Assembly: GCA_018649245.1 (NCBI GenBank)
Contig: JABIIH010000098.1
Location: 1 to 43,646, forward strand
Direction of reading: 5' to 3'
From: Rhodospirillaceae bacterium
GTDB lineage: Bacteria > Pseudomonadota > Alphaproteobacteria > Rhodospirillales > UBA2165
DNA length: 43,646 nt
In this document: piece by piece, positions 21,876-40,088 of the stretch
How positions within the stretch are numbered: the stretch's first letter is position 1
How the letters are laid out: every line of letters begins with the position of its first letter
The notes under the pieces: model-generated
The model's input: only the letters and a program-made list of their open reading frames with translations
Told to the model about the DNA's origin: nothing
Database searches by the model: none
Translations under genes and position numbers: made by a program

Positions 21876-22867
21876 TTGCGCGTGCCCTCCAGTCGAATAC
21901 GAGGATCAAGCACCGCTAGCAGCAGATCGGAAATAAACATCCCAACCACGGTTAGGAGCGAAACAAACAGCAGGAATGAGCCGGCCAGGAACATATCTTG
22001 GCTCGTGAGAGCATCGAGAATAACCGGCCCAGTCGTCGGCAAATCCATGATCACGGCAACGATAACAGCGCCCGAGATGACTTGCGGCAACAGGTTACCA
22101 ATGTCGGCAATGAATGGATTGAGGGCCATGCGCAGTGGGTATTTCAGCAGCAATTTCCCTTCCGGCAGACCTTTCGCCCGCGCTGTTACGACATATTGTT
22201 TGTGCAGCTCATCAAGCAAATTGGCCCGCAACCGCCTTATCATGCCAGCCGTTCCCGAAGTCCCGATAACCACCACCGGAACAATCAAATGCTCTAGCAG
22301 CGACAGTATTTTATCGAACGTCCACGGCTGGTTTTCGAAAGATGGATCAACCAGGCCACCAATCGAAGTACCAAAATATTTACGCGCCAAGAACATTAAA
22401 ATCAGCGCCAGCAGAAAGTTTGGCGTCGCCAGTCCAATAAACCCGACAAAGGTAAGTCCGTGATCACCCCAGCTGTATTGATGGGTCGCTGAATAAACGC
22501 CGATCGGAAAGGCAACAATATAAATAAAAACGATAATGCTAAAATTGAGAATAAGCGAAAATACAAACACTTCACCGATGACTTCCGTGACCGGCAAATC
22601 AAATTCGATCGAGCGACCGAAATCACCCTGCACAACGCCACCAATCCAAGAAAGATATTGCAGCCAAACTGGCTTATCGAGACCAAACTCTTCTTTTAAA
22701 TACGCAATTTTCTGAGGATCGACCGCCTCGCCTTGGCTTTCCAGCTCAGCAATATAGCTGGTCAGATAATCTCCTTCGGGCAGTTGAATAATGACGAATA
22801 CCAATGCGCTGACAACCAGCAACGTCAGGATCATCGTCAAAATCCGGCGGGCGAAATAATTAAGCAT
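21872..22867 (-). CDS. ABC transporter permease, peptide/opine/nickel (Dpp/Opp/YejB-like) family
   Basis: The N-terminus MLNYFARRILTMILTLLVVSALVFVIIQLPEGD is typical of DppB/OppB/YejB. The EAA-type loop reads YVVTARAKGLPEGKLLLKYPLRMALNP. Confidence 0.85.
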   Translation of the reverse strand: MLNYFARRILTMILTLLVVSALVFVIIQLPEGDYLTSYIAELESQGEAVDPQKIAYLKEEFGLDKPVWLQYLSWIGGVVQGDFGRSIEFDLPVTEVIGEVFVFSLILNFSIIVFIYIVAFPIGVYSATHQYSWGDHGLTFVGFIGLATPNFLLALILMFLARKYFGTSIGGLVDPSFENQPWTFDKILSLLEHLIVPVVVIGTSGTAGMIRRLRANLLDELHKQYVVTARAKGLPEGKLLLKYPLRMALNPFIADIGNLLPQVISGAVIVAVIMDLPTTGPVILDALTSQDMFLAGSFLLFVSLLTVVGMFISDLLLAVLDPRIRLEGTRK

Positions 22868-22872
22868 GGGGT

Positions 22873-24798
22873 CTAATTCAACTTTCTTTTTGTATTCTTC
22901 GCACTAAACCAGAATTGATCGGGACGATAGACGCCAAAATGCGCGCCGGGATCCCAATTATAAATTGCTACTTTCGGCACATTTCTTAAATTCTTTTTGG
23001 TCACAACTACCTGCGGCACACTGGATATGATACCAATCGAAAAAAGCTGATTGGTGTATATGTCAAGCATCTCAGTCCAAATACGATGGCGCTCGTCTCG
23101 GCTCGTGGCGCCAGCCCAAACTTTATTCAGCTCGGCCAATTTAACCGCCAGCGGCATATCAGTTTTCTCTCCAGCCCGGCCACGGGTTTCAACATGCTGG
23201 CCCCATTTTGGCCATTGCAATTGTTGCTGACTGGTTGGCGCCAGCTCCTGCGGGCTCGAATCCGGGCTTGGAATTCCGTTCTCCAAACCGAACCACATCG
23301 ACATTTTAACCAGACCACTAAATATCCGATTGCGTAAAACATCGCGCTGCATCGGTTTTAAGAACAGTTTGATGCCAATATTGCGCCATGAATCACGGAT
23401 TAGTTCCATCACATCGGAGGGCTCGGATTCTTCGGTCGAAAATACCACCGTCAATTCCAGCCGTTTGCCGTTCGGCAATAGCCGGATACCGGCCGGTGTT
23501 TTTTTGGTCAGCCCCATTTCATCAAGCAATGCATTGGCGCGTTTTATATCAAATGTCGCCCAACGTTTTTGAAACTTTGGTTGATAGAGCGGGCTTTCCG
23601 GCAACACCGTATTATTGCCTTCCCGCGCCAAACCATAATAAATCACCTGGTTGATCTCACGGCGATTAATACCGAGTGACATGGCCCGTCTAAACCGTAC
23701 ATCCCGGAATAGTTTACGCCACACCGGGTCTTGCACTGTCAAATTGGGGAACAATGCCCAGCGCGAGCCTTTGGCGGTTCGCCACAACAGGGTCGAGAAA
23801 CCAGATTGCTTTTCCGATTGTTTGAGTGCCGTAACGTTACTGAAATTGAGTCCACGGGCCTGCAGATCGCTCTCGCCGCTGCCGGTTTTTATCGGGATCA
23901 ATTTGTTGTTGGTCACATTCATCCGGACTTCATCGATATAAGGCAGCTGCCGGCCTTTAGCATCGATCCGATAATAATAAGGATTGCGCTTGAAGGCAAA
24001 ACGCTTGGCCGGTGGCTTGGTGGCTAACATCCAGGGCTGCAGGGTCGGCAAATCCGGATTGGCATTTTTATATTGCTGGCCGACGGCATAATGAAGGGCC
24101 ACCCAATTGCGTTTTTTAGCCGCTTTTACTTGTGCCTGCAAAGTCGCAGCATCGGTATATTTGGCATGGTACTTTTTCATATAATGAGCTGGCCGGTAGA
24201 GATATAACGGCCGTGCGCCCGCTAAACGGGGTAGGAAGAACGGATTTGGCTTGGACCAGCTATAGCGGATGGTAACATCGTCAAGCACCTCAAATTTCGC
24301 CCGTTCACCATCAACGATTAAAGCCGCCGGCGGACTTTCGTTGCGGACTTCAGTATTGGTCGCAACATCTTCCCAGTAATAGCGGAAATCTTCCGCGGTG
24401 AATGGATGCCCATCCGACCATTTATGGCCAGCTCGCAAATGAAGCGTAAAAATACGCCCTTCCTTAACGTCAAGCTTAGCCAATATATCCGGCTTGATGT
24501 TAAAGCTTTGATCGTACCCGGCCAATCTCGCATAACCATAAACCACCATTTGGCGGGTGTCTTTTTTGCGGCCCATAAGAATATTGAGTCGGCCACCGTG
24601 GCGTCCAGGTTCAACACCCTCTCCGGTAAAGTTTACAACTGACGGATTTTTCGGAATACGCTGGGCTACTGGCGGCAACTTGCCGGCTTCAACATCAGTC
24701 TTCAGGCTGGGTGTTTCGACGAGATCCATCGCCCGGGCTGAAGTAATCGGCAATGATACTAAAATAGATAATAGGCTGATTAAAAAAGATTTTTTCAT
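22873..24798 (-). CDS. ABC transporter substrate-binding protein, family 5 (YejA/OppA-like), secreted
   Basis: Signal peptide MKKSFLISLLSILVSLPITSARA. At 641 aa it has the size and pattern of family-5 SBPs (WSDGHPFTAEDFRYYW). Confidence 0.85.
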   Translation of the reverse strand: MKKSFLISLLSILVSLPITSARAMDLVETPSLKTDVEAGKLPPVAQRIPKNPSVVNFTGEGVEPGRHGGRLNILMGRKKDTRQMVVYGYARLAGYDQSFNIKPDILAKLDVKEGRIFTLHLRAGHKWSDGHPFTAEDFRYYWEDVATNTEVRNESPPAALIVDGERAKFEVLDDVTIRYSWSKPNPFFLPRLAGARPLYLYRPAHYMKKYHAKYTDAATLQAQVKAAKKRNWVALHYAVGQQYKNANPDLPTLQPWMLATKPPAKRFAFKRNPYYYRIDAKGRQLPYIDEVRMNVTNNKLIPIKTGSGESDLQARGLNFSNVTALKQSEKQSGFSTLLWRTAKGSRWALFPNLTVQDPVWRKLFRDVRFRRAMSLGINRREINQVIYYGLAREGNNTVLPESPLYQPKFQKRWATFDIKRANALLDEMGLTKKTPAGIRLLPNGKRLELTVVFSTEESEPSDVMELIRDSWRNIGIKLFLKPMQRDVLRNRIFSGLVKMSMWFGLENGIPSPDSSPQELAPTSQQQLQWPKWGQHVETRGRAGEKTDMPLAVKLAELNKVWAGATSRDERHRIWTEMLDIYTNQLFSIGIISSVPQVVVTKKNLRNVPKVAIYNWDPGAHFGVYRPDQFWFSAKNTKRKLN

Positions 24799-24799
24799 C

Positions 24800-26713
24800 T
24801 TAGGATGCCTTTCTCAATTCAGCGCCGTCACCAGCAACGCGGACAAAATGCTGGTCGGCAATTTCCATCAATTGGGCATCGGCATCACCGTTTAAGGTAA
24901 AGGGAGCCGGCCAAGCTGCAGGCACCGAAGCCTTGCCTTCCATCAAGGCATCAAAATCCAATTGACGGTCAGGATCGGGATACGGCACAGCGGCTAAAAG
25001 GGCTTTGGTATAGGGATGAATTGGGTCTCGGAATAGAATTTCCCGGGGCGCGACTTCGACCAACCGGCCAGCGCACATAACGGCTATATTGTCAGCAACA
25101 TAATCGACCACGGCCAAATTATGAGAAACAAACAAATAGGTGAGCCCAAGCTCTTCCTGCAGGTCTTTCAAGAGATTTAGAATTTGCGCCTGAATAGATA
25201 CATCAAGGGCTGAAACCGGTTCGTCACATAACAACAGTTCAGGTTTTAAGGCTAACGAGCGCGCAATGCTAATCCGCTGGCGCTGTCCGCCGGAAAAACT
25301 ATGAGGATAGCGATTGAGGAAGCGTGGATCGAGACCAACCAAATTCATCAGCTCTTTCACCATCTCAATGCGATATGCAGCGTCGCCAATTTTATGAATA
25401 TCCAATGGTTCACTGACGATATCAAATACTGTCATCCGTGGGTTAAGCGACCCAAATGGGTCTTGGAAGACATACTGATATTTGGTCCTGAACGGAATTA
25501 ATTCAGCGCCGCTTAAATTGGTTAAATTAACGTCGGTGCCGGCGTCATTAAAGATTACCTCACCGGTATCAGGCTTCAATGCGCGCATAATAATTTTACT
25601 GAGGGTGGTTTTACCGCAGCCGCTTTCACCCACCAGGCCCAGTGTCGTGCCGCGCTGAATATCAAAGCTTACATCGTCCACGGCTTTTATCGTATCGTGG
25701 CCGGAGCCAAACATGCCGCCTTTGCGGATGCTGTATGATTTGGAAATATTACGCACGCTTAAAAGTGGCCGCGTATCAGCAGCGTCAATTTCCGGACGTT
25801 CATCAGGTTCCAATAGATGACCGGTGGTATGCTCAATCTCGCGGATCGGCACTAGGCGCTCACCCGGCTTCATATCAAAATGCGGCACTGCGCGCAGCAA
25901 TGATTGGAGATAAGGATGGGATGGCGCACGGTAAATATCGTCTTTCGTCCCGGCTTCGGTAATTCTGCCGTTATACATCACCACAATTTCATCTGCGATA
26001 TTCGCCACTACTCCCAGGTCATGAGTAATAATGAGCACTGCCATTTCTAAATCGGTTTGCAGGTCGGCAATCAATTTCAATATTTGGGCTTGAATCGTCA
26101 CGTCCAAAGCCGTGGTTGGCTCATCGGCGATCAACAAGGCCGGGCGACAGACGAGCGCCATGGCGATCATAGCACGTTGACGCAATCCGCCGGAAAGCTC
26201 AAAAGGATAAGTATCGAGCGCTTTTTTCGGATCTGGAAAACCTACGACCCGCAACATTTCTTCAACCGCTTCATAGGCAGTAGGTTTATTTACATCACTA
26301 TGCAGCAGCATTGCCTCGCTAATTTGATTGCCGATGGTATGCAGCGGTGACAGCGACGTCATTGGTTCCTGGAAAATCATTGAAATACGGCCGCCACGAA
26401 TGGCTTGCATGGCTTTGCCGTTGCGATCCAACTCGGCGATGTTAGTGGCCCCAAAACGACGTTCCGGACTTACATGCAATTCTGAGCGCTGCGGATCAGC
26501 AAACAAAATTTCGCCGCCGGTAATCATTGCCGCTTTCGGCAAAATTCCCATGATGGCTTGCGCAATCGTCGATTTACCGGAACCAGATTCGCCAACAATG
26601 GCGACCGTAGACCCTGGCTGCACCCGAAAAGAGACACCGGCAACGGCCTGCACTGTCCCAGAGGGCACCTGAAACTCAACGGATAAATTGTTTACCTGCA
26701 ATAGTTCATTCAT
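24800..26713 (-). CDS. ABC transporter ATP-binding protein with two fused ATPase domains (YejF-like)
   Basis: NBD1 carries GESGSGKST, LSGGLRQR and LLIADEPTTALD. NBD2 carries GESGCGKTT, FSGGQRQR and LLLCDEPVSALD. Confidence 0.9.
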   Translation of the reverse strand: MNELLQVNNLSVEFQVPSGTVQAVAGVSFRVQPGSTVAIVGESGSGKSTIAQAIMGILPKAAMITGGEILFADPQRSELHVSPERRFGATNIAELDRNGKAMQAIRGGRISMIFQEPMTSLSPLHTIGNQISEAMLLHSDVNKPTAYEAVEEMLRVVGFPDPKKALDTYPFELSGGLRQRAMIAMALVCRPALLIADEPTTALDVTIQAQILKLIADLQTDLEMAVLIITHDLGVVANIADEIVVMYNGRITEAGTKDDIYRAPSHPYLQSLLRAVPHFDMKPGERLVPIREIEHTTGHLLEPDERPEIDAADTRPLLSVRNISKSYSIRKGGMFGSGHDTIKAVDDVSFDIQRGTTLGLVGESGCGKTTLSKIIMRALKPDTGEVIFNDAGTDVNLTNLSGAELIPFRTKYQYVFQDPFGSLNPRMTVFDIVSEPLDIHKIGDAAYRIEMVKELMNLVGLDPRFLNRYPHSFSGGQRQRISIARSLALKPELLLCDEPVSALDVSIQAQILNLLKDLQEELGLTYLFVSHNLAVVDYVADNIAVMCAGRLVEVAPREILFRDPIHPYTKALLAAVPYPDPDRQLDFDALMEGKASVPAAWPAPFTLNGDADAQLMEIADQHFVRVAGDGAELRKAS

Positions 26714-27210
26714 GCTGGCTGCCCACTCTCAGGTATCCTGATATTAAGCGCGTCTATATTGCGCAGCGTCGCACTACTCAATTCCAACTTATTCTGCATC
26801 GCTGCGCGAACGGAGTTGAGAACAACCTGTTCAAAATCGGACAAATTAGACTCAAAGCGAAAGGTATGACCGGCGCCTTTTAGACGTAACTGCATCCACC
26901 CATTACCGCCGCTCCGCCAAGTCGTAAAATATGACAGCGAAAGATCGGTGAGTTTTTCCCAGGGAATAGCTCGATACTTAAAAATCTTCATCGTAATCTT
27001 TTGTTCATCCAATTCTATGCGTGCAAATTGGCGGCACAATGTCCGCAATCCATAAAGCGCAAATAAAGCCGCGCAACCAAGCAGGATTAGCACACCGCCA
27101 GCAGCTTTCGCCCCTAATACATAGGGAGCAAAACAAAAATTAAACCCCACAAAAGCACGAAAATAATCGGCTCGAAGATTGACGAGGGAATAGCCGTGAT
27201 TCGTTATCAT
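26710..27210 (-). CDS. Hypothetical membrane protein (two TM segments plus a possible bacterial PH-like domain)
   Basis: Hydrophobic segments FVGFNFCFAPYVLGA and GGVLILLGCAALFALYGL are followed by a beta-rich region (IELDEQKITMKIFKYRAIPWEKLTDLSLSYF...GWMQLRLKGAGHTFRFES). It starts 1 nt after the upstream stop and overlaps the downstream ATPase start by 4 nt. Confidence 0.55.
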   Translation of the reverse strand: MITNHGYSLVNLRADYFRAFVGFNFCFAPYVLGAKAAGGVLILLGCAALFALYGLRTLCRQFARIELDEQKITMKIFKYRAIPWEKLTDLSLSYFTTWRSGGNGWMQLRLKGAGHTFRFESNLSDFEQVVLNSVRAAMQNKLELSSATLRNIDALNIRIPESGQPA

Positions 27211-27211
27211 T

Positions 27212-30200
27212 TTATTGAGCCTTAGGCCGTTCCTTTATTGTATGTACATTACTATTATCGGCCTGCAAAGCAGGTAAATCGTGATCACCATTAATATTTT
27301 CCAGCGATCTCGCTTGAAATTCCCAATTTTCAGATAATTGAAAGCTTTGCTCATCTATTTTAATCGGTTCTGTCATACTTTTAACGATTCTACTGGCCAA
27401 TAGATCTACGGCATTTACTTCCGCAATCGGACTGACAATAAACGCAATGGTCATATCCTCGATTCGAGCTGCGATGTCGGTCTCACGCATGCACGCACTT
27501 ACCCGATTGGCGACTTCCCGTAATAACCGGTCACCAACATCATCGAGCATCGCGCTGTTCAGATTAAAGTTCTTTTCAATATCAAACCACATTAACGCCG
27601 ATAATTCTTTATACCGCTCATTGCGCGCAATTATATTATTCAAGCGATCCGTAAACAGGCGTCTGTCAGGCAGATTAGTTATTGCATCACGAACCGTCGA
27701 GGCGTCGCTGAGATCCCGTGTCGTGCGCTCTAGGCGATCGGCAACCGAACGGGTCACCCTCGCACTCATATCGACATCTTCTGAAATCAATTTAAAGAAC
27801 ACATCTTTTGAAATGCTCATGACATTCAGATTGCTGGCAGCCTTGATCGTTGCGGTTCTTGGTGCGTCACACAACAAGGCCAATTCACCAAACAAATCAT
27901 TTTTCTTCATGGTGACTAGAGTTTTCGGGCCATCTAGAGTTTCTAGAATGACATCTGCTTCACCGCCAACGATGACATAGGCTTTATCGCCAACTTCACC
28001 TTGCTCGAACACAGTTTCACCGGCGTTATATTCATAGCGTTCACTGGCAAAGGAGAGCAATTTCAATCTTGAGCGGTCGAGGCCGCCAAATAGAGGTACG
28101 CTGGCAAGAACATCAATTTCATCGCCGAACCCGCCTTCGGCCCGGGTTTCTTCGACCGGTTGCTCGACTGATTCAGTTTTAACCTCGTCACCTTGAACGG
28201 CAACTTTACCGCCGGCGATAGAATAAATTTGGTCAAACGGCACATCGACTTCAATTTCACTCGGCACAAATAACAGGCTTTTACCTTCCTGTTCCCGGCG
28301 AATACTGTTCAAGACATTTGCCTGACTTTCGCCATCCAATCCCGTCAACGCTTCGTTCATAACAAACATGTCAGGTTGTTTGATCATGCCGCGGGCGATG
28401 GCCAATTTTTGGCGCTGGATATTTGAAAGTCGAGCACCAGCATTACCGACTTCGAAATTCAGACCTAAGCCAATAATTTCTTCGCGTAAGCCGGTCTCCC
28501 TAATAACCGCGGCCATTAATTCACCCACAGCATCAGCACTTTCAGCCCGTTCGCTGGCCAATTTGCCAAATAAAATATTATCCTGAACCGAGCCCGCCGA
28601 ATTGAAATTCTCGGTATCAAAAAACTCAACCGCGGCGCTAAGATTCTCTGGCAAATTGTCACAAAAGACCGTGCGCGCTTCCAATAGCTGCAGAGCAAAA
28701 TCATCTTCGATCAGACCAAGGTGATGACGCGCTGGTATTAACTTGAAGGGTAAGGCAATTAAATGTGCCCGGTCTTCATCGCTGATACTTTCAATACCAT
28801 TTTGAGTTATGCGATTTAAGAGAGCTTCAAATTCCGGCAAATCTTCGGCGCTAATGAAACTAAAACGTTCAAAAAATTCGTGATCAGCTGGCAGACCGCG
28901 GAATAAATCGACCATAATTTCCGCCAAGCGGTGTCCCTTGGTTAGGAAATCATTGCTTAAACCACATTTCTCAAGCACCTCCAAAACATACGCATTCTCA
29001 CCGAGTGCATCAATTTCAAATTCCTCACCCACCGGGGTGCCAAATAAAATATTTTCCGCCACCGACGCGTTGGTATTGAATTTTTCTTGTTCAAAGGATT
29101 CAACAAAACCGGAAATTTCCGCCTCGTCCAATTGCTGGCGCAAAATTTTTCTGGCCGACAATAATTTGCCTGCCAAATCCGGGCTACTATTATGATCAAC
29201 AGTTTGGCGCAGACCAATCTGATAAACATCATCTTCCAGGCCAACCTGCGCCAAATAGTGAATTTCTTTTTGCGTTAACGCCGCCTGATCTTCGGCACCG
29301 ACCATTGCCATATCGACCCAATCCGCTTGAATGTCATATGGACTGTTGCCGGAACCAATTGAATCGGCAACAAACCTAGCCCGCGTGGATTTCTCTTCAT
29401 CTGAATAACCGGCCTCTCTCATTGGCCGGTGTTTAAGGCCATAAAGTAAATTATCGCGGATGGTGCCTGAAAATATATAAGGCTCTTGGCTAACATAAGA
29501 GAATTTTCGACCGGTCACAGCTTCCGGCATGTCGGTAACATTTTGCTCACCCAAGGTGATGCGGCCACCTGATGGCGATAATAGACTTGTCATTAATTGG
29601 GACAACTCCCCCTTACCGCTACCCGGCGCGCCAACCAGCGCGACATGCGACGGCAAATCCATCGACATGGATGCGCCATCGATTACCCGCAGACCATCAT
29701 CCTCGATCCAACTGATATTTGCCGCCATCAATTTACCTTCAAGCGTCGGCAAATCTTCAACGTCGAGCTTTTGCTGATCCTCGTCAATCAGTTCGGGGAT
29801 TTCAAATTTCTCAATCAACTGCTGGTATTTGATCTTGGAATCTTCCAGCCGCTGATAATAGGTCAGCAGCATTTTCCAAGGGGCGGAAACATCTTTGTAG
29901 GCACTCAAAACGGCAATCAAGGCACCCATGGTTATGTCGCCGTTGATAACAAGCAATCCACCAATGGAGAAAAAGAAAAATGGTGTCAGCAGAGCAAGGA
30001 AGTTGTTGATAAATTTTATAAAGAATTTCTTCTGGTAGATTTGATAGCGAATATTATAGATTCGACCGAGGCGATCAGATAAATCCGCCAACTCATATTG
30101 CGAGGTATCATTGGCATGTATCTCATGTGCGCCGGACACTGTTTCACCAATGCGCTCAGACAGGCGGCGCACTGTTAAGACGCGTTCCTTGCCGAGTAAA

Positions 30201-30793
30201 TTTACTTTCTTTTGTAATTTCGGAATTAAATAACCCTGCAATGGATAAAGCGCTATAGCCGCCAGACCAAGCTTCCAATCCTGAACGAACATAAAGACCA
30301 TCAAGGTAACTAATGTGCCGCCCTGATAAGAAGGTAAGGACAATGCTTCGCCAAAGAAACCACCGAGCGGCTCGGTTTCCAAGGTAACCATAGAGACGAC
30401 TTCACCCTGAGAAGTTTTTCGAAATTGTGGTAATGGAAATCTGAGAACGCGTTCTAAAAGCTGAAAGCGGAGGCGGCGCAGCATCCGCTCACCTGCAGCA
30501 CCACGATAGACATTAATAAAATATTTGAAGCCACCATTGACGAAAACTAAAAGCAGAAAAAGACCACAGAGCGTTAACAAATAGGGGACCTGCTCTAACT
30601 CCATGCCCAAATAGTTTTTAGGAAAAGCAAGTTCTTTACTACCGCTTTTACCGCCTAGCGCGTCATCAATGATCTGTTTTGGCAGCGCGAGATAAATAAA
30701 ATAAAACGGCAGAGATGCACCAGCCAGAATTCCAAGAAACAATTGTTCTTTTTTGCTGTAGCGCAAAACGTATTGGAAAATGCCTTTATCCAT
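27212..30793 (-). CDS. Multidomain protein: ABC-exporter transmembrane domain, atypical ABC ATPase domain, cNMP-binding domain and degenerate GGDEF domain
   Basis: TMD at aa ~1-320. Walker A GAPGSGKGE at aa 388-396, Q-loop VSQEP, signature-like LSNIQRQ at aa 789-795, and Walker B-like DMFVMNEALTGLD. The cNMP cassette FGELALLCDAPRTATIKA lies within the cNMP domain (aa ~895-1010). The GGDEF-like domain at aa ~1030-1160 (DAITNLPDRRLF, GDRLLREVA) has RETD followed by EDMTI in place of GGDEF. Confidence 0.8.
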   Translation of the reverse strand: MDKGIFQYVLRYSKKEQLFLGILAGASLPFYFIYLALPKQIIDDALGGKSGSKELAFPKNYLGMELEQVPYLLTLCGLFLLLVFVNGGFKYFINVYRGAAGERMLRRLRFQLLERVLRFPLPQFRKTSQGEVVSMVTLETEPLGGFFGEALSLPSYQGGTLVTLMVFMFVQDWKLGLAAIALYPLQGYLIPKLQKKVNLLGKERVLTVRRLSERIGETVSGAHEIHANDTSQYELADLSDRLGRIYNIRYQIYQKKFFIKFINNFLALLTPFFFFSIGGLLVINGDITMGALIAVLSAYKDVSAPWKMLLTYYQRLEDSKIKYQQLIEKFEIPELIDEDQQKLDVEDLPTLEGKLMAANISWIEDDGLRVIDGASMSMDLPSHVALVGAPGSGKGELSQLMTSLLSPSGGRITLGEQNVTDMPEAVTGRKFSYVSQEPYIFSGTIRDNLLYGLKHRPMREAGYSDEEKSTRARFVADSIGSGNSPYDIQADWVDMAMVGAEDQAALTQKEIHYLAQVGLEDDVYQIGLRQTVDHNSSPDLAGKLLSARKILRQQLDEAEISGFVESFEQEKFNTNASVAENILFGTPVGEEFEIDALGENAYVLEVLEKCGLSNDFLTKGHRLAEIMVDLFRGLPADHEFFERFSFISAEDLPEFEALLNRITQNGIESISDEDRAHLIALPFKLIPARHHLGLIEDDFALQLLEARTVFCDNLPENLSAAVEFFDTENFNSAGSVQDNILFGKLASERAESADAVGELMAAVIRETGLREEIIGLGLNFEVGNAGARLSNIQRQKLAIARGMIKQPDMFVMNEALTGLDGESQANVLNSIRREQEGKSLLFVPSEIEVDVPFDQIYSIAGGKVAVQGDEVKTESVEQPVEETRAEGGFGDEIDVLASVPLFGGLDRSRLKLLSFASERYEYNAGETVFEQGEVGDKAYVIVGGEADVILETLDGPKTLVTMKKNDLFGELALLCDAPRTATIKAASNLNVMSISKDVFFKLISEDVDMSARVTRSVADRLERTTRDLSDASTVRDAITNLPDRRLFTDRLNNIIARNERYKELSALMWFDIEKNFNLNSAMLDDVGDRLLREVANRVSACMRETDIAARIEDMTIAFIVSPIAEVNAVDLLASRIVKSMTEPIKIDEQSFQLSENWEFQARSLENINGDHDLPALQADNSNVHTIKERPKAQ

Positions 30794-30924: not shown

Positions 30925-32073
30925 TTAATTTATCCAAGCTTTTATCAGCCCAGCTGTCGTATCTGCTCCATTCATATTCAGCTCGTTAAGACCGTCAAGC
31001 GGTTGTTCAACTGCCGCATTTATTGTATTTGCGAGCCCGTCAATGGTCAATTCATCTTCAGGAATTTGGCGAATAAGTCCGCGCTCCGCTAATAGGCGTG
31101 CCCGCAGCGTCTGCTCGGTCTCATGTCCCCCAGCATAAGGTACGACGATACCGTTAGCCTTAGTGAGAAGGATTTCCATCAACGTATTGTAGCCCGCTTG
31201 TGAAACCGAAAGATGACAATTTTTAAGCAGTGTCACGAAATCAGAACGCGCGCGTTCTATCATAACTCCGGGCACTTCTTCTGCCTTTAGCGAATTAAAA
31301 ACTGCATCAGACATGCTGTAGCCTACAAGAATACGCCAAGTTCGATCCGCAACCGTTGTCAAGGACCGAGCCTTCAAGGAAGTCCTGAGCAAATTCTCAC
31401 CTACCGCGCCACTGCCCGATGAAACGATAATTTCTTCGCTGCCCTGATCACCTGCCGCTTTCATCGCCAAGTCTTTTTCCACCACATAGCCGGTGTAGTG
31501 CAACATGTCCTTGATATCTGCGGCCCGCCTAAAGGTGTTCTCGAACGGAATAAGCGCAGCATCACCGTGGATCAGAACATCGTCAAAATAGCTACGTGCC
31601 GTTTCCACCATTTCGACATCGCGCTGCGGTTTGTTCTTTTCGACCAGGATATCGCGCACCGAACATACGATGTGAGGACGCGGCGTGGCTTTGCCGGCAG
31701 CCTCTAATAAGGGGATCAGTTCAAACCGCAACTGCCGGCGGCCAAAGGGATAAAGCTCAATTATCAAAACATTTGGTTGAATTTCCTGGAAAATCTCAAG
31801 CAGCTTTTGTTTGCGCATCTGTTTTAAATCTTCATCCACCGGATTGCCCTCGGCATCAACCAGGCCATCAAAACTCCGGTCATTTGCTTTAACCGATGGC
31901 AGTTGGACAAAAGTCATACCACTGCTATCCAATACCGGGACATCTTCACCGCCCGAGATTACCGTCACCTCGAGCCCTGCGGCCGTCATGGCGCGGGCCA
32001 GAGTAGCTGCCCTTTTGACATGACCAATGCCCAGCAAATGCTGAACATAAAACAGGACTTTTGGCTTACTCAT
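30925..32073 (-). CDS. Predicted GT-B glycosyltransferase (COG4671 / MurG-like family)
   Basis: The N-terminus KVLFYVQHLLGIGHVKRAATLARAM is the pattern I associate with COG4671 predicted glycosyltransferases. It is a paralog of the 35054..36292 product. Confidence 0.6.
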   Translation of the reverse strand: MSKPKVLFYVQHLLGIGHVKRAATLARAMTAAGLEVTVISGGEDVPVLDSSGMTFVQLPSVKANDRSFDGLVDAEGNPVDEDLKQMRKQKLLEIFQEIQPNVLIIELYPFGRRQLRFELIPLLEAAGKATPRPHIVCSVRDILVEKNKPQRDVEMVETARSYFDDVLIHGDAALIPFENTFRRAADIKDMLHYTGYVVEKDLAMKAAGDQGSEEIIVSSGSGAVGENLLRTSLKARSLTTVADRTWRILVGYSMSDAVFNSLKAEEVPGVMIERARSDFVTLLKNCHLSVSQAGYNTLMEILLTKANGIVVPYAGGHETEQTLRARLLAERGLIRQIPEDELTIDGLANTINAAVEQPLDGLNELNMNGADTTAGLIKAWIN

Positions 32074-32659
32074 ATTTGGTCATTTCGAGATTTAATTCAT
32101 GGACGGATAATTTCCCGGCTGCATCAAGCTTGAACATCTGCGCGCAGCCATCCAACAACTTAACCGGCGGTTTGTTGACCATGTCCCAATCTATGGCGGC
32201 GGCGTAAAGAGCACGAATAACACCTTTGTGGACAACTGCTATGGTGGGCTGACCATGTTCCGCGATTTCGGTTAGCAACGGTGCAATTCGGACTTGCACC
32301 TCGCGCGGGCTTTCACCCTTGGGTCCGCGAAAATCCAAACCTTTAGCTTCCCAGGCCGCCATCAAATCTCCGTGCTCTTCGCGAAGATCTTTTAAGGTCC
32401 GCCCTTCCCACTCACCCCACGCCATTTCAACCAAGCGATGATCGGTTTCGGGTTCGCTGCCGGAAAGTATTGTCGCGGTCTCAAAGGCGCGTTTTAACGG
32501 ACTGGCTAGCCAACGAAACCCAGCTAGCTCTTTTGGCATTATCCAGCCACCGACTTCAGCCCGGCCAGTATCATTAAGCGGGACATCGGTGCTGCCTTGC
32601 ACCAATCCGGTGGCATTCCATTCGGTCGTGCCATGACGAATAAGGGCAAGCAGTGTCAT
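32066..32659 (-). CDS. Histidine phosphatase family protein (phosphoglycerate-mutase-like)
   Basis: Contains the catalytic RHG motif (LALIRHGTTEWN), a downstream SPLKRAFETA and VVHKGVIRAL. Size is 197 aa. Confidence 0.8.
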   Translation of the reverse strand: MTLLALIRHGTTEWNATGLVQGSTDVPLNDTGRAEVGGWIMPKELAGFRWLASPLKRAFETATILSGSEPETDHRLVEMAWGEWEGRTLKDLREEHGDLMAAWEAKGLDFRGPKGESPREVQVRIAPLLTEIAEHGQPTIAVVHKGVIRALYAAAIDWDMVNKPPVKLLDGCAQMFKLDAAGKLSVHELNLEMTKYE

Positions 32660-33771
32660 TGGATTAAAGCTCTCAAAGTTTGGTCCAGGGTTTTGGCAGC
32701 CGCCTCAATGGAATGCTCATTTCGCACTATTTTAATAGCCGCCTCAGACATTTCTTTTCGTTCAACTTGGCCAGTTAACAGATCGCTCACTTTAGCAGCG
32801 AAATCCACGGCATTGCCAACCTCGCATAAGAGACCGGTCTCACCAGCGCGGATAATATCGGCGACGCCACCGGTCGCGCCCGCAATTACTGGCAGCCCCA
32901 TCGCTTGCGCTTCCAGCATGGCCATACCGTAGGCTTCGTTGACGGCGGGCCAAACAAATAAATCGCAGCCGGCCAAAATCGGGCTTATTTCATTTTCCGG
33001 TAACTCACCAAGGAAAACTACGCGATCCGTCCCGAGATGAGATTCAACCTGAGCTCTCGCCGGACCATCGCCAATAACCAGCAGCTGCCAGTCTGACGTT
33101 TTAATGTTCTTTAAGGCCTGACCCAACACTTCATAAGACTGAAGCTTGGCATCGTCGCGCATCATCGCCACAGTAACCATCATAGGTAAATTTGGCTCGA
33201 GTTGATGGCGCTCGACAAGTTCGGCTCTAGCTTTTGCACCGTCTATGAGGGACGGCATTTTCATAAATGGCTTTAAAGATATCAGTTTGCTCGGGTCTTT
33301 CATAACCGGCAAGACGCAGACGCTATCCAGCGAATTTAAACTGATGATCGCATCGGCGTGCTGAATAATATCGCCTAACACCCGATGGCTCATATCCCAC
33401 GGCCCACCGGCACGCTTGGGCGCGTAGGATACTTCGGCCGCGACGTACGGAATATTAAGCGCTTTTGAAACCAGCGGGCCAATCCAATCCATCGCTTTAT
33501 AATATAGACGATAAGTAAACCAGATATCCGGACATTGAGCAGAATCGGTATATTGAGCAATCAACTCTTCAGCAATTTTGTGGCCTTCTGATTGCAACTT
33601 CTTTTGTGCTGCCAAATCACCCGTAGGCTCCCGTGCCTTCAATTCTGAGGCGATTTCAACTTCGTGTCCGCAGATTTTCAACGCCTCAATAAGAGAGCGG
33701 GCAACACGCCGGTCGCCGGAAGGCACTTCAGAATTCGGCGATTTCATGGGGGCGTAAAAAGCAACCTTCAT
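32656..33771 (-). CDS. Glycosyltransferase family 4 (GT-B, Glycos_transf_1)
   Basis: The C-terminal domain pattern EAYGMAMLEAQAMGLPVIAGATGGVADIIRAGETGLL is EX7E-type. Confidence 0.8.
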   Translation of the reverse strand: MKVAFYAPMKSPNSEVPSGDRRVARSLIEALKICGHEVEIASELKAREPTGDLAAQKKLQSEGHKIAEELIAQYTDSAQCPDIWFTYRLYYKAMDWIGPLVSKALNIPYVAAEVSYAPKRAGGPWDMSHRVLGDIIQHADAIISLNSLDSVCVLPVMKDPSKLISLKPFMKMPSLIDGAKARAELVERHQLEPNLPMMVTVAMMRDDAKLQSYEVLGQALKNIKTSDWQLLVIGDGPARAQVESHLGTDRVVFLGELPENEISPILAGCDLFVWPAVNEAYGMAMLEAQAMGLPVIAGATGGVADIIRAGETGLLCEVGNAVDFAAKVSDLLTGQVERKEMSEAAIKIVRNEHSIEAAAKTLDQTLRALIQ

Positions 33772-35033
33772 GCCACTTGGTCTACATCTTTGTTTTGTGG
33801 CCGCTCGGCTGCCAAATCAAACAGTGGGTACAATTTAGTCATACAGGATTTGAAATCAAAGGAAGTACGGACGTTTTCCGCTCCGGCCTCGCCTAGTTTT
33901 GCCCGATGCTGGGGATTCTGGATCAGCACGGTTAGTTTTTCCGCCAGCATTTTAATGTTACTGGGCTCGACCAGCAGACCCGTGGCTTCATTTTCGATCA
34001 GCTCTGGGATCGCGGATACAATCGTGGACAGACACGCCAAGCCTTGTGACTGGGCTTCCATCAAAACATTTGGTAGGCCATCTCGGTCACCATTGCCAGC
34101 CACCAGACTGGCGAGCACGAAAAAATCAGCTTCTTGGTATTGCACCGTGACTTCTTCCTGAGATTGCGAACCCAGCCAAGTAATACGGTCTGCAATCCCC
34201 CACCCTGCCGCGGCGCGCTTTAATTTATTAATCAGCGGCCCGCCGCCAACATGGACGAGATGCCAATTGAGGTCTTTTGGCAAGAGCGCCAGTGCCGCCA
34301 GCAAATCTGCATAACCTTTTTTTTCAACCGCGCGGCCAACCGATAATATTCTAACCGGATCATCTGCGTTAGCGCCATTGCGGTCGCTATAGTCAATCTG
34401 GCGGGCCGGAAAGCGTTGTAGATCTATGCCATGATAGGCCAGCGTTACTTTATTCTTTTGTTCAGTAATTGACGCCAAATAGCTTTGGTTCACTTCTGTA
34501 CACGTTACCGCCCATGAGCATTCTTTTAATTTGTCGCGCAAATCCCACTCGGGCGTGGTCCAGATATCAATAGCATGGGCCGAGCAAGACCATGGCAGGC
34601 CCTTAAGTATCGCAGCGTAACGCGTAACCGAAGAAGGTGTATGCAAAAAATGAGCGTGCAGATGCTCTATGTTGTCAGACAACTCCGCCGCCAGAACCAG
34701 CGCCTGACCAAACCGCCTGACCCGATTGAACGAGCGGTCACGGGCCAAATCCCGCTTCCATAATTGATAGACTTTTTGATAGGACGCCCAGCCGCGAACT
34801 TGACGCCAGGCCCGCCAAACACGGCCTATTTCCTGATACAGGTACTCCGGCAGATAACTAACCGGTGCGGTAATTTCAGCGTGAATGGGGTGGGTTTTAG
34901 TATCGGTCGGATGGCGCAGCGATACTATTTGTAACGGCAGGCCATGTTTCTCGAGCTCGCGAATTTCCTGCGCGATGAAAGTCTCGGAGAGACGCGGGTA
35001 ACCTTTGAGAATAATCGCTGTAGCTTTGGCCAC
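33768..35033 (-). CDS. Glycosyltransferase family 4 (WcaL-like)
   Basis: N-terminus ILKGYPRLSETFIAQEIRELEKHG and C-terminal LPNVLMEAQSQGLACLSTIVSAIPELIENEATGLLV. Confidence 0.8.
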   Translation of the reverse strand: MAKATAIILKGYPRLSETFIAQEIRELEKHGLPLQIVSLRHPTDTKTHPIHAEITAPVSYLPEYLYQEIGRVWRAWRQVRGWASYQKVYQLWKRDLARDRSFNRVRRFGQALVLAAELSDNIEHLHAHFLHTPSSVTRYAAILKGLPWSCSAHAIDIWTTPEWDLRDKLKECSWAVTCTEVNQSYLASITEQKNKVTLAYHGIDLQRFPARQIDYSDRNGANADDPVRILSVGRAVEKKGYADLLAALALLPKDLNWHLVHVGGGPLINKLKRAAAGWGIADRITWLGSQSQEEVTVQYQEADFFVLASLVAGNGDRDGLPNVLMEAQSQGLACLSTIVSAIPELIENEATGLLVEPSNIKMLAEKLTVLIQNPQHRAKLGEAGAENVRTSFDFKSCMTKLYPLFDLAAERPQNKDVDQVA

Positions 35034-35053
35034 GAGTACCTCGTGCTATGTTG

Positions 35054-36292
35054 CTATCGACCTACAACAGCGAGATCAGCAGAACTTTCGCCAGTACGTT
35101 TTCTATCAAGATGCTTGCCAGCCAAGCGGCTGATATTCGGTAAGCCATCCAGCAGACCAGGCAACACAACATTCGAAGGCGGATATTGTTGAGTTAACTG
35201 ACGCAACGCCGTTATCATCAAAGATGTATTACGAATTCCGTCATCATTCAACAACGACATCAACCCCAATTCCTGGGCTCTTGAAGCACGTATGTATTGC
35301 TCCAACCTCGGCTGTGTTCGGGGAATGATCAGGCCCGGCTTATTAAAAGATAGAATTTCACAGAAAGTATTGTAGCCACCCATCGCGATGACACCGACCG
35401 CATTTTTCATCAAATGCTCAAAATGGGCATCAAAAGTGATGGCATCGACCTGATCCAATTTCTCAATCCGCTCTAGAAAATTCTCCTGGGCCTCGGTTTG
35501 CATAAAGGGGCCAAAGACAAGAAGAGACGGATGGGGAATAGATTCTCCTGTTTCGTAAGCCCGCAGCACCCAATCGATTAGCGCCTCACCATCACCGCCA
35601 CCGCCTGCGGTCACCAAGTAATATGGCTGTTCCGTCACAGAAGCAGAAACACTGGCTGCCGCATCCGGCACGCCATAGCGCAGATAACCAGTATAGACGA
35701 TTTTGCGGCGTACTGATTCTGGCAGATCAACGCCGGTTAGTGGATCATACACCTGCGGTAATCCATAAACCCACAATTCATCATATAGGTCTTCCAACGC
35801 AGGCAGGACGTTTTTGCGTTCCCATTCCGGCACCAGTAATGCCGGTTCATCCATGACATCCCGGAGACCAAGCACCAATGAGGTGCCGCGCTGTTTTAAC
35901 ATCTGCAGGGTTTCTGCCACTTCACCGCGTAGACCTAATGGCTCTTTATCAACAATAAATATGTCAGGATCAAAAACATCCGCCGTATGCTGGATGATGG
36001 AACCACGCAACTCCATGGTTTTCTCAATATCCAAATGCAGATTAAGCGGCGTGTAATCACCATTGCGCAATTTAATAACGCCCGGCACCCGGACAAAGTC
36101 AACGCGCGCGCGGAAATCAAAACTACCGATGATCGGCGAGCCGGAAAGAATGAGCACGGAAAGTTTGTTATAGGAGCCTACCAAGTAATGCGCGATTGCC
36201 CGGCACCGCCTAAGGTGGCCGAGACCAAAACTATCGTGACTATAAATCAGGACACGGTAATCGTCCCGCTTGGTAACACTCTGGCTGGTCAT
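35054..36292 (-). CDS. Predicted GT-B glycosyltransferase (COG4671 / MurG-like family)
   Basis: N-terminus RVLIYSHDSFGLGHLRRCRAIAHYL, and C-terminal AMGGYNTFCEILSFNKPGLIIPR, which is a MurG-like nucleotide-sugar-binding pattern. Confidence 0.6.
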   Translation of the reverse strand: MTSQSVTKRDDYRVLIYSHDSFGLGHLRRCRAIAHYLVGSYNKLSVLILSGSPIIGSFDFRARVDFVRVPGVIKLRNGDYTPLNLHLDIEKTMELRGSIIQHTADVFDPDIFIVDKEPLGLRGEVAETLQMLKQRGTSLVLGLRDVMDEPALLVPEWERKNVLPALEDLYDELWVYGLPQVYDPLTGVDLPESVRRKIVYTGYLRYGVPDAAASVSASVTEQPYYLVTAGGGGDGEALIDWVLRAYETGESIPHPSLLVFGPFMQTEAQENFLERIEKLDQVDAITFDAHFEHLMKNAVGVIAMGGYNTFCEILSFNKPGLIIPRTQPRLEQYIRASRAQELGLMSLLNDDGIRNTSLMITALRQLTQQYPPSNVVLPGLLDGLPNISRLAGKHLDRKRTGESSADLAVVGR

Positions 36293-36450: not shown

Positions 36451-37182
36451 TTGTTGAACAAAATTTCGCTTTTATGCCCATCGCGTGGCCGCCCCAATGA
36501 CATGGAGCGCTTGATTAAGAGTGTTGCTGCGACGGCAACTGAGCCATCTCGTGTCGAAATTTTACTTTATGTCGACGATGATGACCCAGAAAAAATAAAT
36601 TACCTGGTCAGCCATAAAAATCTGTCAGTTGATCCCGCGGTAGGGCAACTTTTAAATGTTGATCTGCTCGTCGATGAACCGCTGACAACGCCTCTCATCA
36701 ATAATATTTTAGCCGACCGCGCCCAGGGTGATATTTTAATAATCACCAATGATGACCAAATATTTGTCGATAAAAATTGGGATGTCAGGATAGACCAGGA
36801 AGCCTCTAAGTATCCGGACGATATCTATTGTATGTGGTTCAATGATGGTCGCTATCAGGAAAAAATATGCACTTTTCCAATTCTCAGCCGCAAATGGGTT
36901 GATACTCTCGGCTATATTGAGCCATTTTTATTTGAGCATTTTAATTGTGATTTATGGACTTGGCAGATCGGCCAGATGATCGACCGACTCCATTACATCC
37001 CGGATATCCTGGTCGAACATCTCCACCCCGATACCGGTAAAGCGGAAGCTGATGAAACGACAGAGCGCAATCTAAAAGGCGGCAGACCTGATCGTGACCG
37101 GGCAATATTTGCCAAATTTGAGCGTTATCGTGTACTCGATGCCTCATTGCTTAAAGACGTTATCGAGGCAGCAAAGAAATAG
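36451..37182 (+). CDS. Hypothetical protein, possibly a GT-A-fold glycosyltransferase
   Basis: ISLLCPSRGRPNDMERLIKSV...VEILLYVDDDDP and IITNDDQIF resemble the GT2 N-terminal strand and a DxD region. The start is a TTG. It is divergent from the glycosyltransferase operon. Confidence 0.4.
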   Translation: MLNKISLLCPSRGRPNDMERLIKSVAATATEPSRVEILLYVDDDDPEKINYLVSHKNLSVDPAVGQLLNVDLLVDEPLTTPLINNILADRAQGDILIITNDDQIFVDKNWDVRIDQEASKYPDDIYCMWFNDGRYQEKICTFPILSRKWVDTLGYIEPFLFEHFNCDLWTWQIGQMIDRLHYIPDILVEHLHPDTGKAEADETTERNLKGGRPDRDRAIFAKFERYRVLDASLLKDVIEAAKK

Positions 37183-40003: not shown

Positions 40004-40088
40004 ATTATTTACTGACTTATTTAAAATAGAAAGGAGCCGCTCTAGGTTATTACCAAAAGCGGCCCCTAAATTTTAGGTCGGCGGAACT

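What the first reader, a model, noticed from the sequence alone, without database searches (positions are those of the whole stretch)
28199..29731. The ATPase domain carries a triplicated post-Q-loop segment and degenerate catalytic motifs
The block that normally follows the Q-loop occurs three times:
- KFSYVSQEPYIFSGTIRDNLLYG (aa 430-452)
- VESFEQEKFNTNASVAENILFG (aa 564-585)
- VEFFDTENFNSAGSVQDNILFG (aa 722-743)

Each copy is followed by a helical stretch with a GL turn (LAQVGLEDD, LEKCGLSNDF, IRETGLREEI). Only the third copy runs into the signature motif. This puts about 350 aa between the Q-loop and the signature, against roughly 50-60 aa in exporters such as MsbA.

The catalytic motifs also deviate:
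- Walker A ends GKG instead of GK[ST].
- The signature is LSNIQ instead of LSGGQ.
- Walker B has Asn813 where Asp is expected (FVMNE).
- No His is apparent at the H-loop position (SLLFVPSEIE).

If the protein is a homodimeric half-transporter, both nucleotide sites would be non-canonical. That suggests a nucleotide-gated or regulatory role rather than a normal hydrolysis-driven pump.
Basis: seen in the sequence. Interest (0 to 1): 0.7.

Follow-up and report, generated by a model that had tools for sequence, protein, structure and literature searches.

The report
ABC exporter with triplicated, degenerate ATPase
This gene encodes a membrane exporter of the ABC type whose ATP-binding domain carries a conserved 300-residue internal triplication and altered catalytic residues and is fused to two second-messenger sensor domains. 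It belongs to a widespread, undescribed bacterial family always found next to sugar-transferase genes.

Summary
The 1193-aa ORF (27212-30793, minus strand) is a type IV ABC half-transporter. Its nucleotide-binding domain (NBD) is split by about 302 aa between the post-Q-loop block and the helix before the signature.

The 10-residue block occurs three times (aa 443, 576, 734) and never in 20000 shuffles. Copies B and C are clearly homologous (hhalign 97%, E 3e-11). Copy A matches both more weakly, but with two collinear matches per pair.

Walker A GKG, signature LSNIQ, Walker B Asn813 and Ser845 at the H-loop His position are all confirmed by alignment to solved ABC structures.

These features are not private to this gene:
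- The insert defines a family of at least 900 cluster representatives, mostly Alphaproteobacteria.
- Walker B Asn-Glu is near-universal in that family.
- All regions show dN/dS <= 0.09.
- The family always sits beside a conserved glycosyltransferase/phosphatase cluster.
- It is always paired with a cNMP-binding domain, as a separate gene in the plain forms and fused here.

This lineage also adds a degenerate GGDEF domain that keeps its RxxD I-site.

Most likely this is a second-messenger-regulated, hydrolysis-impaired exporter for the cluster's glycoconjugate. That mechanism is inferred, not shown. I found no description of the family in annotation libraries or the searched literature.

The parts
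27212..30793 (-). Whole ORF, 1193 aa: TMD, NBD with insert, cNMP-binding domain, degenerate GGDEF domain
   Evidence: ORF list. Pfam hits ABC_membrane, ABC_tran, cNMP_binding and GGDEF. AF2 mean pLDDT 80.6. Orthologues at 86-87% identity in L001 and L002.
29774..30793 (-). Transmembrane domain, aa 1-340 (type IV ABC exporter fold, six long helices)
   Evidence: PF00664 E 1e-27. Foldseek top hits are P-gp, TmrAB and TM287/288. Helix list.
29438..29773 (-). NBD N-terminal half, aa 341-452: Walker A GAPGSGKG (aa 388-395 = 29609-29632), Q-loop Gln436, and repeat copy A (aa 430-452 = 29438-29506)
   Evidence: Aligned to canonical NBDs up to about aa 460. Motif positions.
28508..29437 (-). Family-specific insert, aa 453-762, about 302 aa relative to ABCB4, mostly helical. 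It holds the tail of copy A ('GL' helix, aa 503-528), copy B and the start of copy C.
   Evidence: Gap in the PDB alignments. 34 invariant columns in a 73-sequence alignment of the aa 451-768 stretch (A2). AF2 insert-only pLDDT 90.4. No PDB structural neighbour, best E 0.48. 913 representative hits with the insert alone.
28946..29155 (-). Repeat copy B, aa 547-616 (ARKILRQQL...VESFEQEKFNTNASVAENILFG...LEKCGLSNDF)
   Evidence: hhalign against copy C: 97.3% probability, E 2.8e-11. Smith-Waterman z=12.3.
28460..28681 (-). Repeat copy C, aa 705-778 (ARTVFCDNL...VEFFDTENFNSAGSVQDNILFG...IRETGLREEIIGLGL). It is the copy continuous with the signature.
   Evidence: Aligns to the canonical post-Q-loop block FSGSIRDNIMVG of STE6 and runs on into the signature.
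28184..28507 (-). NBD C-terminal half, aa 763-870: signature LSNIQ (28415-28429), Walker B MFVMNE with Asn813-Glu814 (28352-28369), D-loop LTGLD, and Ser845 at the H-loop His position (28259-28261)
   Evidence: PDB alignments. Family column counts.
27764..28078 (-). Cyclic-nucleotide-binding domain, aa ~906-1010, with phosphate-binding cassette FGELALLCDAPRTAT (aa 968-982)
   Evidence: PF00027 E 3e-18. Aligned to PKG FGERALLYDEPRTAS. Cassette near-invariant in orthologues. Homologous to the stand-alone cNMP genes next to the plain family members.
27332..27691 (-). Degenerate GGDEF domain, aa 1035-1154: RxxD I-site kept (R1103-E-T-D1106); GGDEF replaced by E1112-D-M-T-I1116
   Evidence: PF00990 E 5e-18. 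Alignment RETDIAARIEDMTIAF vs TpbB RESDLVARLGGDEFAV. Orthologue table.
30925..36292 (-). Upstream conserved five-gene cluster: GT28-like, GT4, GT4, histidine phosphatase, GT28_C
   Evidence: Pfam. The complete five genes are next to family members in L001-L003, L027, L028, L031 and the P0101 contig; single genes are missing or undetected in L004, L029 and L030. No NCBIfam cutoff reached.
26710..27210 (-). Conserved 166-aa protein of unknown function immediately downstream. Its stop overlaps the start of the next gene.
   Evidence: No Pfam or NCBIfam hit. A homologue of about 170 aa is present in all loci examined.

Best explanation
The gene encodes the exporter component of a conserved, mainly alphaproteobacterial glycoconjugate locus. 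It is a type IV ABC half-transporter, most simply a homodimer, from a previously undescribed family with three defining features.

1. The segment from the Q-loop strand through the helical subdomain has been tandemly duplicated. The NBD therefore carries three such modules and about 300 extra, highly conserved residues.
2. The ATP site is remodelled in a conserved way: Walker B Asp is replaced by Asn with the catalytic Glu kept, LSGGQ becomes LSxAQ or LSNIQ, and the Walker A Ser/Thr is replaced.
3. The protein always works with a cyclic-nucleotide-binding domain, encoded by the adjacent gene in the plain forms and fused here.

This lineage has additionally lost the H-loop His and the Walker A side chain (GKG), and has gained a catalytically dead GGDEF domain that keeps its c-di-GMP-binding I-site.

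The most likely mechanism is inferred, not shown. ATP binding, with little or no hydrolysis, closes the NBD dimer. cNMP and c-di-GMP binding to the C-terminal sensors gates the switch between transporter conformations. Export or flipping of the product of the adjacent glycosyltransferases is thereby tied to second-messenger levels.
For: Shown:
- Split NBD and motif substitutions.
- Three-fold repeat.
- Confident AF2 model of NBD plus insert, pLDDT about 90.
- The insert alone finds 913 representatives at E<=1e-3 and 236 at E<=1e-30.
- The insert holds many invariant residues.
- Family-wide motif states and the orthologue table.
- dN/dS 0.01-0.09 in every region.
- A version of the GT cluster lies beside the gene, and a stand-alone cNMP gene lies immediately downstream, in 5/5 plain members sampled; the cluster is complete in 3 of these, L029 lacks the first GT28-like gene and L030 lacks the phosphatase.
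- Fused architectures +cNMP and +cNMP+GGDEF.
- Fusions fall in about 7 separate groups on a rough tree, all lacking the H-loop His.
- Intact cNMP phosphate-binding cassette.
- GGDEF A-site lost and RxxD kept.
- In more distant fused orthologues the catalytic Glu (S, Q or D in L010, L013, L014) and the Walker A Lys (R in L013-L015) are also replaced.

From the literature:
- Degenerate GGDEF domains with RxxD act as c-di-GMP receptors controlling polysaccharide machines such as PelD and BcsE (PMC8461298).
Against: - No biochemical measurement exists.
- Lys394, Gln436, Glu814 and the D-loop are retained in this protein, and these are what a working site would need.
- The conserved, non-random nature of the substitutions (GK[E/D/N] together with N-E) could mean a remodelled but active Mg-ATP site rather than an inactive one.
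- The substrate is unknown, and no glycosyltransferase reaches a family cutoff.
- The 3D position of the three copies relative to the coupling helices could not be inspected.
- The homodimer state is inferred from gene counts in 18-20 kb loci only.
Confidence: 0.5

Rival explanations
1. It is a normal hydrolysis-driven pump with a remodelled metal site. In the family, an acidic or amide residue after the Walker A Lys (GK[E/D/N]) takes over Mg2+ coordination from the Walker B Asp, which becomes Asn, and the catalytic Glu does the chemistry. The insert and the cNMP domain only modulate the rate.
For: - Walker B N-E and GK[E/D/N] are conserved rather than drifting.
- Ser/Thr at the Walker A +1 position co-occurs with Walker B Asp more often than expected (odds ratio 8.5, p 3e-4, not corrected for phylogeny).
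- Catalytic Glu is kept in 125/175 members, and H-loop His in 82/148 plain forms.
Against: - This protein has Gly, not an acid, after the Lys, and it lacks the H-loop His.
- The Walker A +1 position varies freely among close fused orthologues (G, S, N, D).
- Walker A Lys is R or A in about 19% of family members.
- From general knowledge of ABC ATPases, Walker B Asp-to-Asn mutants are inactive.
Confidence: 0.3
2. It is one half of a heterodimer with a second family member or a canonical half-transporter. That would give one competent and one degenerate site, as in TM287/288, TmrAB or CFTR.
For: - Locus L027 carries both a plain 881-aa paralogue and a fused one, flanking the same glycosyltransferase cluster.
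- Known degenerate sites always accompany a consensus site (PMC7756269).
Against: - No second ABC_membrane gene was detected in the ~20.7-41.1 kb part of the window that was scanned with Pfam/NCBIfam; the other large ORFs of the window were not scanned.
- The five plain-form loci each have a single copy.
- Walker B Asn predominates in the family (117 of 175 full-length members, all 17 genomic orthologues), so a family partner would probably not supply a consensus site; the Walker B of the L027 plain paralogue lies outside the held locus and was not read.
- Whole genomes could not be scanned.
Confidence: 0.12
3. The unusual NBD is a decaying relic, or the repeats are chance similarity.
For: - Copy B has no direct similarity to canonical ABC sequences.
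- The A-B pairwise score is not significant on its own.
Against: - dN/dS <= 0.09 across the NBD halves and the insert.
- The insert is invariant at many positions over 73 sequences.
- 0 motif hits in 20000 shuffles.
- B-C E 2.8e-11.
- Collinear double matches in every pair of copies.
Confidence: 0.02

Closest known systems
Type IV (ABCB-like) bacterial ABC exporters and flippases: MsbA, PglK, NdvA/ChvA, HepA
   Same: - Six-helix ABC_membrane domain followed by one NBD.
- Best sequence and fold matches are these proteins and their eukaryotic ABCB relatives.
- Genetic linkage to glycan synthesis, as for PglK, NdvA and HepA.
   Different: - About 300 aa inserted between the Q-loop and the signature.
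- Walker A, Walker B, signature and H-loop all non-canonical.
- NCBIfam scores far below every equivalog cutoff, for example MsbA 176 vs 602.
- C-terminal cNMP and GGDEF domains.
Heterodimeric exporters with one degenerate nucleotide-binding site: TM287/288, TmrAB, TAP1/2, CFTR, MsRv1273c/72c
   Same: - Naturally non-consensus catalytic motifs, including loss of the H-loop His and an altered signature.
- ATP is thought to act as a bound 'glue' rather than a fuel at such sites (PMC7756269).
   Different: - In those proteins the substitution is typically at the Walker B Glu, and a consensus site is always present.
- Here the Walker B Asp is replaced, the Glu is kept, and both sites of the presumed homodimer would be identical and non-canonical.
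Degenerate GGDEF c-di-GMP receptors of polysaccharide machines: PelD, BcsE
   Same: - GGDEF fold lacking the GG[DE]EF active site but keeping RxxD.
- Attached to a membrane component of a glycan pathway (PMC8461298).
   Different: - Here the domain is fused to an ABC exporter, downstream of a cNMP-binding domain.
- c-di-GMP binding is untested.
- The second Arg needed in PelD was not examined.
ABC-superfamily ATPases with large insertions between the N- and C-halves of the NBD: SMC/Rad50 coiled coils, UvrA insertion domains (own knowledge)
   Same: A large insertion at the same topological place, between the Walker A/Q-loop lobe and the signature/Walker B lobe.
   Different: - Those insertions are unrelated domains or coiled coils in soluble DNA enzymes.
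- Here the insert is derived from duplication of the NBD's own helical subdomain, in a membrane exporter.
- Foldseek gave only insignificant SMC/MukB coiled-coil hits (E >= 0.78).

Membership tests
ABC transporter, type IV exporter half-transporter | N-terminal six-helix ABC_membrane (PF00664) domain | tested here: met
   PF00664 E 1e-27, aa 19-297. Six long helices in the AF2 model. Foldseek hits to P-gp, TmrAB and TM287/288.
ABC transporter, type IV exporter half-transporter | NBD with Walker A GxxGxGK[ST] | tested here: not met
   GAPGSGKG: the P-loop and Lys394 are present, but Gly395 replaces Ser/Thr. The family column at this position is E/N/D/S/G.
ABC transporter, type IV exporter half-transporter | Q-loop Gln | tested here: met
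   Q436 aligns to the VSQEP Gln of ABCB4/ABCB1. It is Gln in 27 of the ~118 close family members and in only 26 of the 175 full-length sequences of the broader set.
ABC transporter, type IV exporter half-transporter | Signature LSGGQ about 50-60 aa after the Q-loop | tested here: not met
   LSNIQ lies at aa 789-793, 354 aa after Q436.
ABC transporter, type IV exporter half-transporter | Walker B hhhhDE | tested here: not met
   MFVMNE: Asn813 lies opposite the Asp, and Glu814 is kept. Asn in 17/17 orthologues.
ABC transporter, type IV exporter half-transporter | H-loop His | tested here: not met
   FVPSE aligns to IAHRL, giving Ser845. His is absent in 26/26 members with a C-terminal extension.
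ABC transporter, type IV exporter half-transporter | ATP-dependent transport | not testable with these tools
   Needs purified protein.
MsbA / HepA / CydDC / NdvA equivalogs (NCBIfam) | Score above the curated cutoff | tested here: not met
   Best is MsbA at 176 bits vs cutoff 602, then HepA at 160.6 vs 725. Every hit is split into two stretches.
Heterodimeric ABC exporters with one degenerate site | A partner subunit providing a consensus site | tested here: inconclusive
   No second ABC_membrane gene in the scanned ~20.7-41.1 kb part of the window or in five plain-form loci. L027 has two paralogues. Whole genomes were not scanned.
Heterodimeric ABC exporters with one degenerate site | Degeneracy centred on the Walker B catalytic Glu | tested here: not met
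   Glu814 is retained and the preceding Asp is what is replaced. The definition comes from PMC7756269.
Cyclic nucleotide-binding domain (PF00027) | Beta-roll with phosphate-binding cassette FGE...R[ST]A | tested here: met
   E 3e-18. FGELALLCDAPRTAT aligns to the PKG cassette.
Diguanylate cyclase (active GGDEF) | GG[DE]EF active-site motif | tested here: not met
   EDMTI lies opposite GGDEF of TpbB. No canonical GG[DE]EF in any GGDEF-bearing orthologue.
Degenerate GGDEF c-di-GMP receptor (PelD/BcsE type) | RxxD I-site five residues upstream of the A-site | tested here: met
   R1103-E-T-D1106 aligns to RESD of TpbB. RxxD kept in 10 of the 12 GGDEF-bearing orthologues; L005 and L007 have QETD.
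Degenerate GGDEF c-di-GMP receptor (PelD/BcsE type) | c-di-GMP binding | not testable with these tools
   Needs a binding assay.

The most novel reading that the evidence does not exclude
This family is an ABC-exporter fold that has given up ATP hydrolysis as its motor. It has become a second-messenger-gated conduit or flippase for a glycoconjugate. The triplicated helical subdomain forms the docking platform through which the cNMP-binding domain (and here a c-di-GMP-binding GGDEF) opens and closes the NBD dimer. This would be a bacterial counterpart of the way CFTR and SUR turned ABC transporters into ligand-gated devices.
Probability: 0.25. Interest if true: 0.8.

Novelty: new variant of a known kind. 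Interest (0 to 1): 0.6.

Why it matters
ABC exporters are among the best-studied membrane machines. The accepted picture is that at least one consensus ATP site drives the cycle.

This family differs in several ways. It is large and under purifying selection. In a probable homodimer, both sites lack the Walker B Asp. The helical subdomain that talks to the membrane domain is triplicated. A cyclic-nucleotide sensor is an obligatory partner.

That combination offers a natural test of how much of the ABC cycle needs hydrolysis. It also offers a new route by which cAMP/cGMP and c-di-GMP could control glycan export directly at the transporter.

The finding also flags an uncharacterised, widely distributed marine alphaproteobacterial glycosylation locus whose product is unknown.

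Tried and rejected
- Copy B alone and as a 25-sequence profile (A3) against PDB sequences gave no ABC hit. Its ABC origin rests on its similarity to copy C.
- Foldseek of the insert-only model against the PDB found nothing below E 0.48, with TM about 0.1.
- Model coordinates are not exposed. I could not check which copy occupies the canonical helical-subdomain position or where the cNMP domain docks.
- NCBIfam on the five cluster genes and the 166-aa protein gave no family above cutoff.
- Promoter and terminator scans gave counts equal to the shuffle expectation, so they are uninformative.
- Five literature searches for the family or architecture found no description.
- Source names for family members are all generic.
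- Chance repeats and pseudogene decay were considered and rejected on statistics and dN/dS.
- dS against L012 was saturated, so only L001 and L002 give usable ratios.
- The Walker A +1 / Walker B association and the count of seven fusion groups are not corrected for phylogeny or tree error. They should be read as suggestive only.
Full report
**What is there.** The finding lies in a 1193-aa ORF on the minus strand (27212-30793). Pfam finds ABC_membrane (aa 19-297), a split ABC_tran hit, cNMP_binding (aa 921-1006) and GGDEF (aa 1035-1154).

**The split NBD.**
- phmmer against PDB sequences aligns aa ~355-460 with the N-terminal half of canonical exporter NBDs.
- It aligns aa 763-870 with the C-terminal half.
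- In ABCB4 the two halves are separated by 3 residues, and here by about 302.
- NCBIfam hits (MsbA, HepA, CydD and others) are all split in two and far below their cutoffs.

**The repeats.**
- The pattern [GA][ST][IV]x[DE]N[IL]L[FY]G hits aa 443, 576 and 734, and never in 20000 shuffles of the protein.
- Copies B and C are homologous beyond doubt: Smith-Waterman score 95, z=12.3, 0/500 shuffles; family-profile hhalign 97.3% probability, E 2.8e-11 over 39 columns.
The repeated unit is therefore helix, strand, Q-loop-like turn, xxN[IL]L[FY]G, then a helix-GL-helix.
- Copy A matches copy B at E 7.5e-4 and 9.3e-4.
- In every pair the two matches are collinear.
- Copy C taken alone aligns to the canonical post-Q-loop block (FSGSIRDNIMVG of STE6) and continues through the signature, Walker B and H-loop.
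- Copy B alone, even as a profile, does not hit ABC proteins. Its origin is established only through copy C.

I read this as two rounds of internal tandem duplication of the Q-loop/helical-subdomain module.

**The structure models.**
- AlphaFold2 with a 73-sequence alignment models the NBD plus insert at pLDDT about 90.
- It places each 'GL' at a helix-turn-helix junction.
- It gives copies B and C the same strand, short helix, strand element.
- The insert as a whole has no structural neighbour in the PDB (best E 0.48).

**The motifs.** Alignment to solved structures confirms all of these:

| Motif | This protein | Canonical |
|---|---|---|
| Walker A | GAPGSGK-G395 | GxxGxGK[ST] |
| Signature | LSNIQ | LSGGQ |
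| Walker B | FVMN813-E814 | LLLDE |
| H-loop | Ser845 | His |

Lys394, Gln436, Glu814 and the D-loop are retained.

**It is a family trait.**
- Searching with aa 340-880 gives more than 120 proteins above 500 bits at about 97% coverage. Most are 880-940 aa from Rhodospirillales and other Alphaproteobacteria.
- The insert alone recovers 913 cluster representatives at E<=1e-3, 608 at E<=1e-10 and 236 at E<=1e-30.
- The 73-sequence alignment has more invariant columns in the insert than in the catalytic motifs.
- Across 174 full-length members plus the query (175 sequences), the residue after the Walker A Lys is E, D, N or S.
- The Walker B 'Asp' position is Asn in about two thirds, then Asp and Ser.
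- The catalytic Glu is kept in 125/175.
- The Walker A Lys is R or A in about 19%.
- The signature is LSxAQ.
- All 17 orthologues from genomic loci have Walker B Asn.
- Ser/Thr after the Walker A Lys co-occurs with Walker B Asp (odds ratio 8.5, p 3e-4, uncorrected). This hints at a relocation of the metal-binding acid.
- dN/dS against two orthologues of 86-87% identity is 0.01-0.09 for the TMD, both NBD halves, the insert, the cNMP domain and the GGDEF domain. dS is near saturation, so the ratios are approximate.
- This is a maintained protein, not a relic.

**Context and partners.**
- In the window the gene follows a five-gene cluster: GT28-like, GT4, GT4, histidine phosphatase, GT28_C. It precedes a conserved 166-aa protein of unknown function and an Opp/Dpp-type importer.
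- The same arrangement occurs in related Rhodospirillaceae MAGs.
- In five plain-form members sampled from long contigs, the ABC gene is divergent from a version of this cluster (complete in three; L029 lacks the first GT28-like gene and L030 the phosphatase). In all five it is immediately followed by a stand-alone cNMP-binding gene of about 150 aa.
- Longer family members are the same protein fused to cNMP_binding (about 1010-1085 aa) or to cNMP_binding plus GGDEF (about 1150-1200 aa).
- On a rough NJ tree the fused forms fall into seven groups.
- None of the 26 fused sequences has the H-loop His, against 82 of 149 plain ones.
- The fused cNMP domain has an intact phosphate-binding cassette.
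- The GGDEF domain has EDMTI in place of GGDEF but keeps RETD at the I-site. No GGDEF-bearing orthologue has a canonical GG[DE]EF, and 10 of 12 keep RxxD.
- Degenerate GGDEF domains with RxxD are established c-di-GMP receptors in PelD and BcsE (PMC8461298).

**How it most likely works.**

*Shown:* exporter fold; triplicated module; conserved non-canonical site; purifying selection; obligatory genetic coupling to a cNMP-binding domain and a glycosyltransferase cluster.

*Inferred:*
- The protein is a homodimer, because the sampled loci mostly hold one copy.
- Both ATP sites are therefore non-canonical.
- In this lineage (GKG, Asn813, Ser845) hydrolysis is slow or absent.
- ATP binding and second-messenger binding together gate export of the cluster's product.

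More distant fused orthologues also replace the catalytic Glu and the Walker A Lys. This favours a non-hydrolytic role in the fused clade. I put this explanation at about 0.5.

The main rival is a remodelled but active ATPase (about 0.3). It fits the plain forms better than it fits this protein. A heterodimer (about 0.12) is suggested only by L027, which has two paralogues; a family partner would probably carry Walker B Asn too, although that paralogue's Walker B lies outside the held locus.

**Comparison with what is known.**
- The protein works like, and is built like, a type IV ABC exporter. It fails four of the canonical NBD motif tests and every NCBIfam equivalog cutoff.
- It differs from the known degenerate-site exporters. 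Those alter the Walker B Glu and always retain one consensus site (PMC7756269).
- Large inserts at this topological position are known in SMC/Rad50 and UvrA (own knowledge). Those inserts are foreign domains, not self-duplications.
- Pfam, NCBIfam, the source annotations and five literature searches gave no description of this family.

**Verdict.** I rate this a new variant of a known kind, with interest 0.6.

Noticed in passing
window 30925-36292 (-): Five-gene cluster (GT28-like, GT4, GT4, histidine phosphatase, GT28_C). It, or a version lacking one gene (L004, L029, L030), lies next to every family member with enough flank. No gene reaches an NCBIfam family cutoff, and the product is unknown.
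   Followed up: partly
window 26710-27210 (-): A 166-aa protein with no Pfam or NCBIfam hit. A homologue of about 170 aa is present in all loci examined. It starts 1 nt after the ABC stop codon, and its own stop overlaps the start of the next gene (ATGA at 26710-26713), which suggests translational coupling.
   Followed up: partly
window 20721-26713 (-): An Opp/Dpp-type importer: fused double ATPase, SBP_bac_5 and two permeases. Its ATPase and binding-protein genes travel with the glycosyltransferase cluster and the ABC gene in most plain and fused loci examined (not seen in L028). An exporter-importer pairing of unknown meaning.
   Followed up: partly
L027 1-1489 and 7138-10703: One metagenomic contig carries both a plain 881-aa paralogue and a cNMP-GGDEF-fused paralogue flanking the same cluster. 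The TMD of the fused copy is called as a separate 295-aa gene, which may be a frameshift or an assembly error.
   Followed up: no
L028-L031 and the P0101 contig: Four of the five plain-form loci have an extra gene of about 260 aa, with no Pfam hit, between GT28_C and the ~170-aa gene (L030 has a 166-aa gene there). It is absent from the window; L027 has a 283-aa gene at the corresponding place.
   Followed up: no
window 36451-37182 (+): A 243-aa ORF with a TTG start and no family hit, conserved at 93% identity in L002. It occupies the position where plain-form loci have the divergent ABC gene.
   Followed up: no
window 37188-41147 (-): A PhnS2/T2/U2-like ABC importer (ATPase, fused double permease, binding protein), below the equivalog cutoffs. 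Its ATPase gene lies next to the cluster in L002, L003 and L005; the permease was seen only in L005.
   Followed up: no
family alignment A1; aa 483, 492, 494, 638, 689, 690, 707 of the ORF: Invariant polar or aromatic residues inside the insert (N483, W492, D494, H638, R689, H690, R707) suggest a conserved binding or contact surface of unknown partner.
   Followed up: no
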